Assembly (NCBI RefSeq): GCF_006345805.1
Contig: NC_042999.1
Location: 144,894,001-144,958,000 of the forward strand
DNA length: 64,000 bases
Direction of reading: 5' to 3'
Source of the DNA: Octopus sinensis
Lineage: Eukaryota
Shown here: piece by piece, positions 22,701 through 31,700 of the stretch
Position numbering within the stretch: the stretch's first letter is position 1
Layout of the letters: each line of letters starts with the position of its first letter
Made by a program: the position numbers

Positions 22701-25700
22701 AGAGACTGCAAGTTAGGGGATGCCAACGGGAGGGGGGTTGTTGAAACATAGTGGACAACACGTCTGTGGACTATAAGCTGAAATGTGTTGGTGAGTGATT
22801 TCAATACCAATCAATCAGGTATGTTTTTTTGTAGAGTGGTGGGATGTACTGCATTGGGGATTCACCCAAGCTTTGTAATGGATTTGTAATTGTTACTGGT
22901 TCTGAGGTGGAATTCTAGTTGTTAAAACAGTTTTTGTTATGCTGAAGATGTGCATTTACCAGGAGAGATCCTCAGTGATTATGAGACTCATTAATTTGTA
23001 ATGACCTTGAGGGTCCTAGTTGTGCGCTGTTCATGTTTAGGAGAGATTGATACAATATTGCAAAATGGAGTATGAGCTGTCAAAGTTGCATATAAAAGCT
23101 CAAGTAATTATAGAGGAATGGAAAATGGTATAATTTACACTGGAGTGGTATTTGTTGGTGATGATGGGGAAACATGTTGTTGATGTACAAATGTAAAAGT
23201 ATTGAAGTGAAGTCAAATTGTAGGGTAAACCAAACATTTTTTGTGATATTTTTGCTGCTGTTTAATAAACAAATATATATATATATATTCATTAATGTAA
23301 CTCAGATAACTTACATAGGTTCCAGCCAATATAGGGCCCAGGCCATAGCCAACTTAATAAGACCACCTGGTGGTGCTATTATATATTTACAGATATGTGT
23401 GTGTCTGTTTGTCCGTCACCAACGCTTGACAATCGGTGTTGGTATGTTTAAGTCCCATAACTTAGCGGTTCAGCAAAACAGAACGATAGAATAAGTACTA
23501 GGCTTAAAATAAGTTCTGGGGGGCCATTTGTTCGACTAGAACCCTTCAAGGTGGTGCCCCAGCATGATCGCAATTAAAAGACTGAAACAAGTAAAAGAGA
23601 AAAGAGAATTAGATGGATTTCTGCTTAAGGCATGGGATATAAACCCCTCATAATTTTTTTCATTTTTTGGAATTTTCAGGAAATTTTTGCGAATTTGTAT
23701 TTCACACACAGAAATTCAATAGATTATGCAAAATGCAAAAAAAAAAAAAAAAAAAAAAAAAAATGCTGCATCATTTAAGAGCTATTTAGCTGTTATTTTT
23801 AGCAAATCTCATGACCCATTCTCTCCTCGTCTGTTTGTCAGTCTGACGTATTCATGTTTTTCGATATCTTTCTTCCCTTAAACACATTTAATGGTCTGTT
23901 TCTTGGATTTAAGCTCTAAAGTCGTATTTTTAACTATAATTTAAAAAAGAAAAATTTTGTAAGATAAATTTTTTTTCCATAGTTTTGTGAATTCTCGTGT
24001 AGAGAATTCGCAAAAATTTTATGAAAATTCCAAATAACAAAAAAGTTGAAGGGTTATGGGCACATTGAATAATTTCCGACTCCTTAGAAATTAACTTTAA
24101 CAAGACTTTAACGTCTCAAATAAAATGACTTTATTATCTTGAATTAGTATTTTCAAACGATTTAATTAATATATTACCTACTTCCCAAGATGGGAGTTAG
24201 CTCCTCTTATTTTCAATATTTTGTCGGTAGATGGCAGTATAGCGCAAGACTATATAAAACGTACTCCACCCGTCATCCGCCTCTTAGTTGCCATACTGTT
24301 TTAACAGGCGGCATATTATACATTCTCAGGTGAGAGTATTTTTTATTTTTTAAGTCATTCCATCTAAAATTTCTGTCAAAGAAGTGCAATTTGTTTCATC
24401 ATTAGGTTTTAATTGAAAAATAGTCGATGATTTAATCATTGTTTAGCGGATGATATTAGATTATGATTACACGAGGTCAGCCTAAGCATGGGATGCTTAT
24501 ACTTAGCGAAAGTTCTCCAAATTTTTAATACTTTATCAGTCTTTCCAAATTCTCTCCTATCTATCTATCTTTCATCTATCTCTATCTATCTATATATATA
24601 TAAAAAAATAAATTAAAGTTTTTAGAATTAGCTTCGTTGGCTAAAATGGCTACGACGTGATTTACAAGATCATTGCTGATATAGTCTTGTAAAGTGGCAA
24701 ACGGGAGCTGACTTTACTGTACTCTTCGGAGTATAGTTGTTTTGTGCAGTGAAATCCCATTCCACCATGTCGAACATAAATACTTGTCCCCTGGTTGCCA
24801 GCTGAGGACTTGAACAGGGTATATTCCAAAACTTCTCGTAGTCTCTGTGACTATTACCGGGGAGTGAGACCATACTCGGTACAGTTCCATTATAATAATA
24901 CTTTCTTTGGTAGAAAGCCTACAGGATTCTCTGGGATATATTTTTTTCATCAATACTTGTTAATAGTCCATTTCATCTGCTGTTATTGTAATTTGATAAA
25001 TTGGATCGTTCTAAGAACCAAAAAGATATTTAAAAAATCGAGTATAAAGATTACTAGTATATTCTCTTAAAAGTAGATTAAAATTAAACAATGCAATGAC
25101 TAGGTGAAAGTGTGATGGATTTCAGGCCATGTGCGTTATGGCGGGTGCCTGCTTACGTGTGTCATTTCGTCGGAAATTTTCTTCGAACCGTATGCTATTT
25201 CTTTGAAGGCTAATTATCTTTCAGCGTATACACTAGATATGTAGAAAAAGTTTCTGTACACATAAGATTAATTTTGCTTTATGCCATGTGAATGAACTCC
25301 TAAGAGTAAAATATACTCTTCTCCCAGTCAACCATTCCCTTGTATTAAGTACGGAGAATAAAACGCATGTAGTATATGTATCTGTTCATGATTGCCGTTA
25401 TCTATTTACGCTTCGATATCATTAAAGTTGCAAAGGTGCGGGTTAAATTTAGTATAATAGTTTAATGTATGCGTTTAACTTAACCGACGTGATTTATGAG
25501 ATCATTGCTAAAATATCTTGTAAGTGGCAAACGGGAGCTGACTTTACTGTACTCTTTGAGTACAGTTGTTTCGTGCAGTGAAATCCCATTCCACCATGTC
25601 GGAAATAAATCTTGTCCCCTGGCTGATAAAGTCAGGTGAGGACTTGAACAAAGTATATTCCATAACTTCTCATAGTCTCTTTGACTATTACTGGGGAGTT

Positions 25701-28700: not shown

Positions 28701-31700
28701 GTTGCTCCCTGTGATGTGTTGATACCTGCTCAAAATACAGCTCTTGGTCCTGAAAAGACTTCTTTCTTCCAAGCTTTGTCTATCCCAACAAAAATCTCCA
28801 GGGGTACTATTGAAATCTTGAATGATGTCCGTTTGATAAAGGAAGCTGATAAAGTTGGAGCTTCTGAGGCTACATTGCTAAACATGTTAAACATCTCACC
28901 ATTTTCATATGGTTTAGTTATTGAGCAAGGTAGGTTGTGTATAATTTATTTTGCAGCCCTCAAGAATGATGAAAAAAAGAATGACTTTCGCTCTACTGAA
29001 AACCATGTAGATTCTTTATCACTGACTTAAGGGCTTTATTTATTTAGTGTCTTGTCCGATTTATATTTAATTTTTTTGTTCATTCTTATACGGTTAATAT
29101 AAAGCGTTACGCCTTTCAGAAAATCAAAAAAAAATGTGTGTAGTAGGTGTAAAACAACTTCCTATGAACGAATATGAAAAAAAAAAAATGCCCGCACGCG
29201 AAAGGGGTGGGGGAGAGGCCACGGAAAATTCACATCGGGAAGTTCCGAAAGCGTCTGAGGGGCCTCCCCGGGCACCAAAAAAAAAATAGTGTAATATGTG
29301 TAAAACAACTTGCTCTAAACGAATAAAAATGCGCACTCGCGAAAGAGGGGTGGGGAGAGGCCTCGGAAAATTTATATCGGGAATTTCCGAAAGCGTCTGA
29401 ACCGGACACAAAAACAAAAACAGCGTAATAGGTGTAAATCAACTTGCTCTAAACGAATATGATTAAAAAAATGCGCGCTCGCGAAAGGGGGGTGTGGGAG
29501 AGGCTTCGGAAATTTCCCATCTTCAGTCCACAGCCTTTAAACTAAGAAAAAATAGTGTAATTGGTGTAAAACTACTTGTTCTAAACTAGTATCAAGAACA
29601 CACATGAATCATAAACTCCAGGGGTACTATTGAAATTTCCCATCTTCAGTCCACAGCCTTTAAACTAAGAAAAAATAGTGTAATTGGTGTAAAACTACTT
29701 GTTCTAAACTAGTATCAAGAACACACATGAATCATAAACTCCAGGGATACTATTGAAATCTTGAATGATGTCTGTTTGATAAAGGAAGCTGATAAAGTTG
29801 GAGCTTCTGAGGCTACATTGCTAAACATGTTAAACATCTCACCATTTTCATATGGTTTAGTTATTGAGCAAGGTAGGTTGCGTATAATTTATTTTGCAGC
29901 CCTCAAGAATGATGAAAAAAAGAATGACTTTCGCTCTACTGAAAACCATGTAGATTCTTTATCTCTGACTTAAGGGCTTTATTTATTAGTGTCTTGTCTG
30001 ATTTATATTTAATTTTTTTGTTTATTCTTATACTAGTGTTTTTATTCTTATACTAGTGTATGACTCTGGAACTGTTTTTGCACCTGGTGTCTTGGACATT
30101 ACTGATGATGATATCCGTAAGAAGTTCATGGCTGTAAGTACTTTTTTCATTTATAAACTCGTTGCAGAATGTTTAAAACTGCCTTCATCATGATATTCAA
30201 GTAATATATATATCTTCTTTGCAGGGTGTGACAAATGTTGCCAGCTTGTCTCTGGCTATTGGATATCCAACATTAGCTTCTATACCACATCTTCTTGTCA
30301 ATGGCTTCAAAAATCTGGTTGCTATATCTTTGGAAACAGATATTGAGTTTGAAGAAGCAAGAGAGGTATATTAGTTTTGAATTTTTTTTTTTTTTTTTTT
30401 CACTTGTTAAATCTGTCAATAATTACATCTGTGTTTTTATTGGATGAAACTATGAAAATGATTTGTATTTTCAGATCAAAGAGTTGTTATCAGATCCTGA
30501 AAAGATGGCAGCTGCTCTGGCAGCAAGTGCTGTTAGTACTGCTGCTGCAGCTCCTGCAGCTGCCTCTGCAGCAGAGGAAAAGAAGGAAGAAAAAGTGGAG
30601 TCTGAAGAAGAGTCTGACGAGGACATGGGTCTTGGCTTGTTTGATTAAAGATAATAAACATCACTTTCATCTTGGAATTGGGTTTTTGTTTTTCACATGG
30701 TTGATAGACTATTTTTTCTTCTAGTTTTCTTAGTGACTGAGATGCAACTGGGCAGTGGAAAATCATTTATTTAATTGGTGACTTGATGACCTGTATTAGT
30801 CTATGGGTTTCACAAGACAGTTCTTTGCTAATACTGCTTTGGAGTAGGAATGAGTGGAACTACTGTTGGAAAAACTAGCTTCTAAACTGCACACAAATAT
30901 TGAAATGCCTTCTTAGGTGATGGGCAGAAGTACAAGTCAAGGCAAGGTTTATGGAAGTCTAGCAGTTGCTCATGCATACTAGTTGTGCCATTGATGCCAT
31001 GCAAGGCAAAGGCTGATACATATTGATATTGCAAGAACATGATGCAGCATGGTCTGGAAATTGAATACCCACCTGGTCGTGAGACAGGCTCTTACACTGA
31101 GCCATGCACCCTCTCTGAACTGCACATTCATGACTATACACACTGCTTTTTATGTTATGGAAGTGCTGTTTGGGATTTTTCATAGGATTCCATAAACATT
31201 CTGCAATTTAAACTTCACATACTGTAATCTGGGGTGAATGGGGACAATTTTGAGGTTCAAATGCATGTCATTAAGCAACTGCAAATAGCATTTACTGATT
31301 TAGTTCATTGAAATTTTATCAAAATTCGTCGGTGCACCGTTTTTATAAAAAACCACTGACCCTATTCACCCTGTCAATTGGGGTGAATGGGGATAGTTGT
31401 CTACAACACACTATTGGACCTATTAAACTAGCTGCAGGGTGAATACAGATAAATAACTGGTAAAGAAAGTGGTATGATGTGAACAGATTATTGGCAGAAT
31501 AAACGAGATTTAGTTATTTTCAACATGAGACAAATGGCACTGTTCTTAATTATAGTTTCTGATTAAATCCATGTCTGGCAACTGATCTGAGATGGAATGT
31601 TGCTTACGATTTAAATCCAAATATATCTGCTGTTGATGATCAGTTGTTGGTATTGATACAGTTGTCATTCTCGTCTGTTTTGCCATTATCATTTGTCTCC

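What the first reader, a model, noticed from the sequence alone, without database searches (positions are those of the whole stretch)
24281..30660. RPLP0 hosts seven intronic snoRNAs, including two 18S pre-rRNA processing RNAs (3x U17/snR30 and U22)
Seen: three U17-like H/ACA RNAs (two in intron 1, one in intron 2), a U22-like C/D RNA (intron 3), another H/ACA RNA (intron 4) and two U59-like C/D RNAs (intron 6), all on the sense strand with intact boxes. Known: U17/snR30 and U22 are cleavage-type snoRNAs needed for 18S maturation. In mammals they sit in separate non-coding hosts (SNHG3/U17HG and SNHG1/UHG), and frog/fish U17 lies in RPS7. Inference: in this lineage one TOP-promoter 60S protein gene co-produces much of the small-subunit processing RNA set, tying 40S maturation to P0 transcription. 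I do not know of this arrangement being described.
Basis: partly seen in the sequence, partly recalled or inferred. Interest (0 to 1): 0.85.

Follow-up and report, generated by a model that had tools for sequence, protein, structure and literature searches.

The report
Octopod RPLP0 gene carrying intronic snoRNAs
The ribosomal protein P0 gene of an octopus-like cephalopod carries small nucleolar RNA genes in five of its eight introns, including U17 and a probable U22, which is a new host for known RNAs rather than a new kind of system.

Summary
Window 24281-30660 (+) is a nine-exon RPLP0/uL10 gene. A 321-aa database protein confirms the model exon by exon. Its closest named relative is from Argonauta hians, an octopod.

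Rfam places six sense-strand snoRNA matches in its introns:
- Three SNORA73/U17 matches: 84.4, 84.3 and 71.8 bits against a gathering score of 74.
- One SNORD22/U22-like match: 38.1 bits against 50, E = 1.6e-4 window-wide.
- Two SNORD59-like matches: about 26.5 bits against 45.

A seventh, family-less H/ACA candidate in intron 4 is the best of 3 descriptor hits in 128 kb.

Only five RNAs are independent. U17 copies 2 and 3, and the two U59 copies, are 98% identical recent duplications.

Expression, exclusivity and rRNA targets could not be tested. Multi-copy U17 in a ribosomal-protein gene is already known in Xenopus and Fugu. RPP0 hosts snoRNAs in sponges, and host turnover is common.

The most interesting element is the U22-like RNA, because papers of 2010 and 2018 call U22 vertebrate-only.

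Verdict: a new member of a known kind, of modest interest.

The parts
24251..24259 (+). TATA box upstream of the RPLP0 start
   Evidence: Sequence read; located. Transcription start not mapped.
24280..24329 (+). Exon 1 (5' UTR), beginning with the pyrimidine run CCTCTT (TOP-like), followed by a GT donor
   Evidence: The 5' end is inferred from the TATA spacing only.
24652..24886 (+). U17/SNORA73 copy 1 in intron 1. H box 24774-24779, m1-like 24821-24828, m2-like 24867-24873, ACA 24881-24883.
   Evidence: Rfam 71.8 bits (gathering score 74), E = 3.2e-15. Fold, motifs. 87% identical to copy 2 inside the RNA and 29-38% in the flanks.
25484..25720 (+). U17/SNORA73 copy 2 in intron 1. H box 25603-25608, m1-like 25655-25662, m2-like 25701-25707, ACA 25715-25717.
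   Evidence: Rfam 84.3 bits, above the gathering score..
25451..25750 (+). Duplication unit carrying U17 copy 2; the partner unit is 26408-26707
   Evidence: the repeat finder family D1: 300 nt, 98%.
26308..26404 (+). Exon 2 (ATG at 26351)
   Evidence: Translation is an exact match to P0006 residues 1-18.
26441..26677 (+). U17/SNORA73 copy 3 in intron 2, 36 nt from the donor and 68 nt from the acceptor. H box 26560-26565, m1-like 26612-26619, m2-like 26658-26664, ACA 26672-26674.
   Evidence: Rfam 84.4 bits..
26746..26845 (+). Exon 3
   Evidence: Pfam Ribosomal_L10, E = 2.7e-4. Exact in P0006.
27166..27289 (+). U22/SNORD22-like box C/D RNA in intron 3, 94 nt from the acceptor. C box 27171-27177, D box 27281-27284, terminal stem 27166-27169 with 27285-27288.
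   Evidence: Rfam 38.1 bits (gathering score 50), E = 1.8e-5 regional and 1.6e-4 window-wide, model 1-126. Strict C/D descriptor hit. Fold.
27384..27459 (+). Exon 4
27494..27630 (+). Family-less H/ACA candidate in intron 4, 34 nt from the donor. 5' hairpin 27495-27554, H box 27555-27560, 3' hairpin 27566-27624 with a 7+9-nt internal loop, ACA 27625-27627.
   Evidence: No Rfam match at E <= 10.
28131..28376 (.). Dispersed repeat of about 245 nt (SINE-like) that lengthens intron 4; not part of the snoRNA set
   Evidence: blastn within the window gives copies at about 39090-39331, 61510-61751, 241-400, 59470-59639 and 57299-57412, at 77-87%.
28498..28585 (+). Exon 5
28674..28929 (+). Exon 6
   Evidence: Pfam RL10P_insert, E = 1e-23. 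PDB P0/uL10 chains, E about 1e-40. Exact in P0006.
28956..29034 (+). U59/SNORD59-like box C/D RNA copy 1 in intron 6, 26 nt from the donor and 1022 nt from the acceptor. C box 28966-28972, antisense 28983-28995, D' 28996-28999, D 29022-29025.
   Evidence: Rfam 26.4 bits (gathering score 45)..
28793..29091 (+). Duplication unit 1: the 3' 137 nt of exon 6, U59 copy 1 and about 60 nt downstream
   Evidence: the repeat finder families D2 (252 nt, 98%) and D8 (48 nt, 96%).
29125..29735 (.). Repeat array inside intron 6 (periods 142 and 123 nt), related to dispersed copies elsewhere in the window. It separates the two U59 units.
   Evidence: tandem repeats. (copies at 32494-32845 and 33700-34044).
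29736..30033 (+). Duplication unit 2: a partial pseudo-copy of exon 6, U59 copy 2 and downstream sequence
29899..29977 (+). U59/SNORD59-like copy 2 in intron 6, 79 nt from the acceptor. C box 29909-29915, D' 29939-29942, D 29965-29968.
   Evidence: Rfam 26.7 bits..
30057..30133 (+). Exon 7
30225..30365 (+). Exon 8
   Evidence: One substitution against P0006.
30475..30648 (+). Exon 9, ending in TAA
   Evidence: Pfam Ribosomal_60s, E = 1.8e-12. Two substitutions against P0006.
30653..30658 (+). AATAAA polyadenylation signal

Best explanation
This is the RPLP0 (uL10/P0) gene of an octopod cephalopod, working as an ordinary multi-snoRNA host gene.

Proposed mechanism: RNA polymerase II transcribes the gene from a TATA plus pyrimidine-initiator promoter. 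Splicing releases the introns. After debranching, exonucleases trim each intron down to the snoRNA, which is protected by H/ACA or C/D core proteins.

The products are five independent RNAs:
- Two diverged U17/snR30 paralogues. One of them was recently duplicated between introns 1 and 2.
- One probable U22 orthologue.
- One H/ACA RNA with a canonical 3' pseudouridylation pocket and no assigned target.
- One U59-like methylation guide. A repeat-associated duplication inside intron 6 recently copied it.

U17 would act through its m1/m2 loop on 18S expansion segment 6. The role of U22 in 18S maturation is taken from Xenopus work.

Shown here: the gene model, the sequence and fold features, the family matches and the duplications. 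Inferred: transcription start, expression, processing, rRNA targets, and any dosage coupling to P0.
For: Host gene:
- Nine GT-AG exons and a 966-nt coding length, tracked by phase without joining the exons.
- Per-exon Pfam hits to L10, RL10P_insert and 60s. PDB P0 chains match exon 6 at about 1e-40.
- A 321-aa protein, P0006, matches exons 2-7 exactly and exons 8-9 with 3 substitutions.
- The nearest named relative is Argonauta hians P0-like, 95% identical over exon 6.

U17:
- Two matches above and one just below the Rfam gathering score.
- Copy 1 against copy 2 is 210 of 241 identical inside the RNA. The flanks are 20 of 68 and 24 of 64, so similarity stops at the RNA ends.
- Of 82 predicted pairs across the three copies, 2 change on both sides and stay paired, 7 change on one side and stay paired, and 5 are broken or gapped.

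U22-like:
- Full-length Rfam alignment with E = 1.6e-4 window-wide.
- It is the only plus-strand hit of the strict C/D descriptor in 64 kb.
- The octopod minimum-energy fold has an 8-9 bp hairpin enclosing a 4-bp stem with a GNRA loop.
- Read by eye in the alignment, the Rfam consensus letters in the same columns (41-48 with 69-76, and 51-53 with 58-60) can also pair. Four of these 11 pairs differ on both sides and none is broken. The Rfam model scores only a 4-bp terminal stem, so this evidence is independent of the bit score.

U59-like:
- All boxes and a terminal stem are present. The antisense-plus-D' stretch matches the consensus at 16 of 18 positions.

H/ACA candidate:
- Best of 3 descriptor hits in 128 kb.
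- The pocket top lies 16 nt from ACA. Hairpin z-scores are -3.2 and -2.9 against mononucleotide shuffles.

Position in the intron:
- U17-3, U22 and U59-2 end 68, 94 and 79 nt before the acceptor.
- The median for human ribosomal-protein hosts is 109 nt (PMC13736004).
Against: - There is no expression or end-mapping evidence for any of the seven RNAs.
- Four of the six Rfam matches fall below curated thresholds. The two SNORD59 matches are not significant window-wide on score alone (E = 0.35 and 0.42).
- In the U59-like guide, the fifth nucleotide upstream of D' is C, where the Rfam consensus has U. This nucleotide selects the methylated residue. Either the target base differs in this lineage or the guide is mismatched at the critical position.
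- All three U17 copies deviate from motifs that are invariant in all 14 species of Table 1 of PMC7601244. Here m1 is AUAUUCCA and m2 is AGACCAU, against AUAUUCCU[A/U/G] and AAACCAU.
- The 5' hairpin of the intron-4 candidate has a one-sided bulge rather than a two-sided pocket.
- U17 copies 1 and 2 share one intron, as do the two U59 copies. U59 copy 1 lies 1022 nt from the acceptor.
- The two 98% duplications could be assembly artefacts.
Confidence: 0.75

Rival explanations
1. Only the U17 genes are real family members. The U22-like and U59-like RNAs are lineage-specific box C/D snoRNAs, or decayed copies, whose resemblance to SNORD22 and SNORD59 is partial or fortuitous. On this view no second 18S-processing RNA is hosted here.
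For: Both fall below Rfam gathering scores: 38.1 against 50, and about 26.5 against 45. The SNORD59 E-values are 0.35-0.42 window-wide. The same U59-like locus also matches a different methylation-guide family at 23.5 bits. The nucleotide that specifies the methylation site differs from the consensus. Papers of 2010 and 2018 state that U22 is known only from vertebrates (PMC2943600; PMC6315972).
Against: The SNORD22 match is full-length at E = 1.6e-4 window-wide. It includes a 10-nt exact block (UGAACCCACU, as printed) and an internal hairpin kept through four both-sided changes. The U59-like antisense-plus-D' stretch keeps 16 of 18 consensus positions. Rfam thresholds for vertebrate-seeded families are expected to miss protostome orthologues, which is my inference.
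Confidence: 0.3
2. The count of seven is inflated by assembly artefacts or by very recent, possibly non-functional, duplicates. The functional set would be one snoRNA per intron: U17 in intron 1 or 2, U22-like in intron 3, the H/ACA RNA in intron 4 and the U59-like RNA in intron 6.
For: U17 copies 2 and 3 are 235 of 237 identical, with about 33 nt of shared flank on each side. The U59 units are 96-98% identical, include 137 nt of exon 6 and flank a repeat array. The confirmed protein shows no extra exon-6 segment. U59 copy 1 lies far from the acceptor.
Against: The duplicates are not identical: six mismatches in 300 nt for the U17 unit. They sit in distinct unique contexts. Intragenic spread of U17 through several introns is documented in Xenopus (PMC7601244).
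Confidence: 0.25
3. One reading: RPLP0 is the sole or dominant source of U17 and U22 in this lineage, so P0 transcription sets the supply of 18S-processing RNAs.
For: Both RNAs are on the sense strand of one highly expressed class of gene. No other copy occurs in the remaining 57 kb or so of the window.
Against: One 64-kb window says nothing about the rest of the genome. In vertebrates mature snoRNA and host transcript levels correlate only moderately (PMC13736004). U3, U14 and the other processing RNAs are not here.
Confidence: 0.3

Closest known systems
Xenopus laevis ribosomal-protein gene (called S8 in the original work) with U17 in all six introns, and Fugu RPS7 with intronic U17
   Same: In both, U17 is carried in multiple copies in the introns of a ribosomal-protein gene and released by exonucleolytic processing of the excised intron (PMC7601244, passages and reference titles). 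Here there are three copies in two introns, one pair a recent intragenic duplicate.
   Different: The host here is a large-subunit stalk protein gene (RPLP0), not a small-subunit protein gene. The lineage is a mollusc. The same gene also carries a U22-like RNA, a U59-like RNA and a further H/ACA RNA. The m1/m2 motifs deviate by one nucleotide each.
Mammalian non-coding hosts U17HG (U17a/b) and UHG (U22 plus U25-U31)
   Same: These are multi-snoRNA host genes of the 5'-TOP class whose introns carry the products (PMC7601244; PMC7277114). A pyrimidine run sits at the likely start here too.
   Different: The mammalian hosts are non-coding, and U17 and U22 lie in separate genes. Here the host is protein-coding and both lie in one gene.
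Sponge RPP0 (RPLP0) genes hosting snoRNAs
   Same: The same host gene carries intronic snoRNAs in Amphimedon and Suberites (PMC3412847, passages).
   Different: The sponge RNAs are SNORD83-like, plus one of unknown target. They are not U17, U22 or U59.
Vertebrate U22 (SNORD22)
   Same: Length is 124 nt against a 126-position model. The C and D boxes, the terminal stem, a 10-nt central block and an internal hairpin with a GNRA loop are all shared.
   Different: It scores below the family threshold. The remaining sequence is diverged, the host differs, and function is untested. Human SNORD22 is itself described as an orphan in a 2026 preprint.

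Membership tests
SNORA73 / U17 / snR30 | Score at or above the Rfam gathering threshold (74 bits) | tested here: met
   84.4 and 84.3 bits for copies 3 and 2. Copy 1 scores 71.8 bits and fails narrowly.
SNORA73 / U17 / snR30 | Hairpin, H box, hairpin, then an ACA box three nt from the 3' end | tested here: met
   Folds. H boxes ACAUAA or AAAUAA, and ACA located.
SNORA73 / U17 / snR30 | m1 (AUAUUCCUA) and m2 (AAACCAU) motifs in the internal loop of the 3' hairpin | tested here: inconclusive
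   Both motifs are in the right loop, but each differs by one nucleotide in all three copies: AUAUUCCA and AGACCAU. The reference motifs come from Table 1 of PMC7601244.
SNORA73 / U17 / snR30 | Base pairing of m1/m2 with rm1/rm2 in 18S ES6, and a requirement for 18S processing | not testable with these tools
   No rRNA of this organism is in the window or in any collection offered.
SNORD22 / U22 | Score at or above the Rfam gathering threshold (50 bits) | tested here: not met
   38.1 bits; E = 1.8e-5 regional and 1.6e-4 window-wide.
SNORD22 / U22 | Box C, box D and a terminal stem, in a length of about 125 nt | tested here: met
   the RNA is 124 nt.
SNORD22 / U22 | Conserved internal sequence and structure | tested here: met
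   A 10-nt exact block, and an internal hairpin whose columns pair in both the consensus and the octopod RNA, with four both-sided changes. The consensus side was read by eye and was not computed.
SNORD22 / U22 | Requirement for 18S rRNA maturation | not testable with these tools
   Known only from Xenopus depletion experiments (reference titles seen).
SNORD59 / U59 | Score at or above the Rfam gathering threshold (45 bits) | tested here: not met
   26.4 and 26.7 bits.
SNORD59 / U59 | C, D' and D boxes and a terminal stem | tested here: met
SNORD59 / U59 | Antisense element upstream of D' matching the family's 18S target | tested here: inconclusive
   16 of 18 positions of the antisense-plus-D' stretch equal the consensus. 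The fifth nucleotide upstream of D' is C instead of U. The target rRNA was not available.
Box H/ACA guide RNA (generic class), intron-4 candidate | Two hairpins, an ANANNA hinge and ACA three nt from the end | tested here: met
Box H/ACA guide RNA (generic class), intron-4 candidate | Pseudouridylation pocket about 14-16 nt from the box (spacing recalled from general knowledge) | tested here: met
   The 3' hairpin has a 7+9-nt loop whose top lies 16 nt from ACA. The 5' hairpin has only a one-sided bulge.
Box H/ACA guide RNA (generic class), intron-4 candidate | Complementarity to an rRNA or snRNA uridine; membership of a described family | not testable with these tools
   No rRNA was available. 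No Rfam family matches at E <= 10.
RPLP0 / uL10 | L10 N-terminal domain, P0 insertion domain and acidic 60s C-terminal tail | tested here: met
   Tested exon by exon: PF00466, PF17777 (1e-23) and PF00428 (1.8e-12). PDB P0 chains.
5'-TOP gene | Transcript starting with C followed by a pyrimidine tract | tested here: inconclusive
   CCTCTT lies 21 nt downstream of the end of the TATA box. The transcription start is not mapped.

The most novel reading that the evidence does not exclude
The intron-3 RNA is a true U22 orthologue. That would make U22, described in 2010 and 2018 papers as vertebrate-only, date back at least to the protostome-deuterostome ancestor. In addition, in octopods the only expressed U17 and U22 genes would be those in RPLP0 introns. 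A large-subunit stalk-protein gene would then set the supply of two RNAs needed for 18S maturation, with variant m1/m2 motifs matched by changes in cephalopod 18S ES6.
Probability: 0.2. Interest if true: 0.5.

Novelty: new member of a known kind. Interest (0 to 1): 0.3.

Why it matters
- It adds a lophotrochozoan data point to the picture of snoRNA host turnover. The same RNAs (U17, U22, U59) move between ribosome-related hosts while staying intronic.
- If the U22 assignment holds, it extends a 'vertebrate' processing snoRNA to molluscs. That provides a second, distant sequence for finding what is functionally conserved in U22: the 10-nt block and the GNRA hairpin.
- The one-nucleotide changes in the otherwise invariant m1/m2 motifs of U17 give a clean covariation test against cephalopod 18S.
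- None of this changes how snoRNA hosting is understood.

Tried and rejected
Leads that went nowhere:
1. A strict C/D descriptor also hit the antisense strand of intron 3 at 27311-27377. The stretch is AT-rich, overlaps the acceptor region, contains a short internal repeat and has no Rfam support, so I treated it as chance.
2. The relaxed C/D and H/ACA descriptors hit 58500-58624 and 58866-58990 (+), and also 47783-47936, 19097-19188, 37673-37802, 59546-59690, 15821-15885 and 8799-8889. I read 58440-59040 and saw no convincing boxes or stems. There is no Rfam support. The other hits were not inspected.
3. I looked for further snoRNAs in the non-U17 parts of intron 1 and in upstream intron 3. 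The descriptors hit nothing there. Those stretches are unique within the window.
4. Retroposition as the origin of U17 copy 1: the flanks read show no A-rich tail or flanking direct repeats. An old duplication with decayed flanks fits better.

- Target tests for U17 m1/m2, the U59 guide and the H/ACA pocket need this organism's rRNA.
- RPLP0 introns could not be compared across cephalopods or molluscs. The one genome-contig scan covers bacteria and archaea only and was not used.
- Rfam's own species list for SNORD22 could not be consulted.

Literature limits:
- PMC344193 (Atzorn 2004) and PMC60799 (Hirose and Steitz 2001) are not held.
The supplements of PMC3511168, PMC3412847 and PMC6962438 may list host genes or family hits that bear on novelty.

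No structure prediction, complex prediction or representative-protein search was run, because none bears on the question.

Full report
HOST GENE

Window 24281-30660 (+) holds a nine-exon gene with GT-AG introns throughout. Its coding length is 966 nt, or 321 codons plus a stop. I tracked this by exon phase without ever joining the exons. The spliced model was searched exon by exon only. The joined coding sequence was never assembled, translated or searched.

- Individual exons hit Pfam Ribosomal_L10 (exons 3 and 4), RL10P_insert (exon 6, E = 1e-23) and Ribosomal_60s (exon 9, E = 1.8e-12).
- Exon 6 matches P0/uL10 chains of solved ribosomes at about 1e-40.
- A database search with exon 6 returned a 321-aa protein (P0006, on a 1044-nt contig) that is 100% identical over the exon. 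The closest named protein is '60S acidic ribosomal protein P0-like [Argonauta hians]' at 95%.
- The translations of exons 2-7 occur exactly and in order in P0006. Single-residue gaps fall where codons are split. Exons 8 and 9 differ by one and two residues.

A TATA box (24251-24259) precedes a CCTCTT run at 24280, and AATAAA follows the stop codon. The transcription start itself is not mapped.

THE RNAs

Rfam at curated thresholds reports two SNORA73/U17 genes (26441-26677 at 84.4 bits and 25484-25720 at 84.3 bits, against a gathering score of 74), plus an unrelated U11 gene. At E-value thresholds the gene region adds four more matches, all on the sense strand and all full-length against their models:

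| Family | Coordinates | Bits | Gathering score | E (regional) |
|---|---|---|---|---|
| SNORA73 (third copy) | 24652-24886 | 71.8 | 74 | 3.7e-16 |
| SNORD22 | 27166-27289 | 38.1 | 50 | 1.8e-5 |
| SNORD59 | 28958-29032 | 26.4 | 45 | 0.049 |
| SNORD59 | 29901-29975 | 26.7 | 45 | 0.04 |

As a background control I ran the whole 64 kb at E <= 1, which gave 88 rows.
- 76 rows are microRNA families stacked on a few loci on both strands. I take that pattern to mean low-complexity sequence, but I did not inspect those loci.
- The other 12 are U11, one viral cis-element and 10 snoRNA/scaRNA rows.
- Of those 10, three sno_ZL1 rows sit on the same stacked loci and one SCARNA7 row has E = 0.93. The remaining six are the RPLP0 matches.
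- Window-wide, SNORD22 keeps E = 1.6e-4, while the SNORD59 matches drop to 0.35 and 0.42.

U17

All three copies fold into a branched 5' domain, an H box, a hinge hairpin, and a 3' hairpin whose internal loop carries the m1-like and m2-like motifs. An ACA box follows.

- Copy 1 and copy 2 are 210 of 241 identical inside the RNA. Their flanks are only 20 of 68 and 24 of 64 identical, so similarity stops at the RNA ends. This is what long-term constraint on the RNA alone would give.
- Across the 82 predicted pairs, two change on both sides and stay paired, seven change on one side and stay paired, and five are broken or gapped. With only two independent lineages this is weak but consistent support.
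- Copies 2 and 3 are a 300-nt duplication at 98%.

One detail deserves follow-up. Table 1 of the snR30/U17 review lists 14 species from ciliate to human. In that table m2 is invariant (AAACCAU) and m1 varies only at its last position (PMC7601244, table read). All three copies here read AGACCAU and AUAUUCCA. The review states that m1/m2 variation is matched by changes in 18S. I could not test this, because no rRNA of the organism is available.

U22-LIKE RNA

The score is below the curated threshold, but several lines of evidence agree.
- The alignment covers model positions 1-126 with a 124-nt sequence.
- It has C and D boxes, a terminal stem and a 10-nt exact central block.
- It is the only plus-strand hit of a strict C/D descriptor in the window.
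- The minimum-energy fold contains an 8-9 bp hairpin enclosing a 4-bp stem capped by GAAA.
- Reading the alignment by eye, the consensus letters in the same columns (41-48 with 69-76, and 51-53 with 58-60, loop GUAA) also pair. Four of these 11 pairs differ on both sides between the consensus and the octopod RNA, and none is broken.

The Rfam model encodes only the 4-bp terminal stem, so the hairpin is evidence independent of the bit score. It is, however, an inspection by eye and not a computation. I rate orthology with vertebrate U22 at about 0.65-0.7.

Two papers state that U22 is known only from vertebrates (PMC2943600 of 2010, passages; PMC6315972 of 2018, passage). My searches found no later report of an invertebrate U22. 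I could not consult Rfam's own species list or any supplement.

U59-LIKE RNAs

Both copies have C, D' and D boxes and a 5-6 bp terminal stem. The antisense-plus-D' stretch equals the consensus at 16 of 18 positions.

The fifth nucleotide upstream of D' pairs with the residue to be methylated; that rule is general knowledge of box C/D guides. Here it is C where the consensus has U. Either the target base is G in this lineage or the guide is mismatched at the critical place.

The two copies belong to a duplication of about 300 nt (96-98%) that also copies the last 137 nt of exon 6. The duplication flanks a repeat array related to dispersed copies elsewhere in the window. Removing the insert would give an intron of roughly 185 nt, with the snoRNA 26 nt from the donor and 79 nt from the acceptor. 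That is probably the ancestral state.

INTRON-4 H/ACA CANDIDATE

No Rfam family matches it. Its layout:
- a 60-nt 5' hairpin (-19.0 kcal/mol);
- the hinge AUAAUA;
- a 3' hairpin (-13.8 kcal/mol), made of a 7-bp lower stem abutting ACA, a 7+9-nt internal loop and an upper stem;
- three nucleotides after the ACA.

The top of the loop lies 16 nt from ACA. A home-made H/ACA descriptor found 3 hits on both strands of the window, and this one was best on both energies. From the two other hits, the chance expectation within the 5,310 nt of sense-strand intron is roughly 0.1. I rate it a plausible snoRNA (about 0.5) with an unknown target.

POSITIONS

U17-3, the U22-like RNA and U59-2 end 68, 94 and 79 nt before the acceptor site. 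The median for human ribosomal-protein hosts is 109 nt, and position is known to matter for box C/D processing (PMC13736004, passages).

Intron 1 holds two U17 genes and intron 6 holds two U59 genes. Clusters of several H/ACA snoRNAs per intron are reported for Drosophila, but I saw only the title of that paper, in a reference list.

WHAT IS KNOWN

- Multi-copy U17 in ribosomal-protein introns: Xenopus (all six introns of one gene) and Fugu RPS7. Mammals use the non-coding U17HG (PMC7601244).
- U22 lies in the non-coding UHG together with U25-U31 (PMC7277114).
- U17 host switches within vertebrates are noted in PMC2655684.
- Among vertebrates, 77% of orthologues of ribosomal-protein-hosted snoRNAs stay in a ribosomal-protein host, although many change the exact gene (PMC13736004).
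- Sponge RPP0 introns host a SNORD83-like snoRNA and another snoRNA (PMC3412847).
- In Drosophila, 27 cytoplasmic ribosomal-protein genes host snoRNAs (PMC2246290).
- Searches for RPLP0 with snoRNA hosting, for Octopus with SNORA73, and for cephalopod or mollusc snoRNAs found nothing on this particular arrangement. The giant squid genome paper gives only family counts.

VERDICT

In detail: five independent snoRNA genes at seven loci lie in five introns of an octopod RPLP0 gene.
- Co-hosting of U17 and a probable U22 is real at the sequence level.
- 'Much of the small-subunit processing set' overstates two of the nine listed processing RNAs.
- Dosage coupling to P0 is untested.
- The type of arrangement is well precedented.

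It is a new member of a known kind. The U22-like RNA and the variant m1/m2 motifs are the parts most worth a follow-up.

Noticed in passing
window 41258-41391 (-): A full-length U11 minor-spliceosome snRNA gene (Rfam 94.5 bits against a gathering score of 39, E = 4e-16), about 10.6 kb downstream of RPLP0 on the opposite strand.
   Followed up: no
window 8357-11707 (-): A 1116-codon open frame without stops, carrying two AAA ATPase domains (PF00004, E = 1.3e-64, two stretches). It appears to be a large single coding exon of a double-AAA protein. It was not identified further.
   Followed up: partly
window 36069-38749 (+); also 15623-16222 (+) and 54335-55390 (+): Non-LTR retrotransposon remains. 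There is a reverse-transcriptase domain (PF00078, E = 1e-32) at 37231-38004, in the GC-rich stretch at 36-40 kb. The open frames at 15623-16222 and 36069-36935 look alike by eye.
   Followed up: partly
window 43780-44736 (-) and 48958-49383 (-): DNA-transposon remnants: an ISXO2-like DDE transposase domain (E = 8e-17) and a Tc3/Sleeping-Beauty-type HTH domain (E = 4e-12).
   Followed up: no
window 28131-28376, with copies near 39090-39331, 61510-61751, 241-400, 59470-59639 and 57299-57412: A dispersed repeat of about 245 nt (SINE-like), present at six places in the window in both orientations. One copy lengthens RPLP0 intron 4.
   Followed up: partly
window 30021-30059: An exact 20-nt tandem duplication that contains the acceptor of intron 6, giving two AG sites 20 nt apart. 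Only the second keeps the frame seen in the confirmed protein.
   Followed up: partly
window 27311-27377 (-): An antisense box C/D-like motif (C box, D box and a 4-5 bp stem) in intron 3. It is AT-rich and has no family match, so it is probably chance.
   Followed up: partly
window 32143-32216, 53660-53754, 61392-61481, 63434-63604 and others: Stacks of sub-threshold matches to many microRNA families on both strands at the same loci. This is the usual signature of simple-sequence repeats rather than of microRNA genes. The loci were not inspected.
   Followed up: no
window 62351-63253: A long proline/serine/leucine-rich low-complexity open frame on the + strand, with a glycine/arginine/lysine/glutamate-rich frame on the - strand. 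This indicates a short-period tandem repeat.
   Followed up: no
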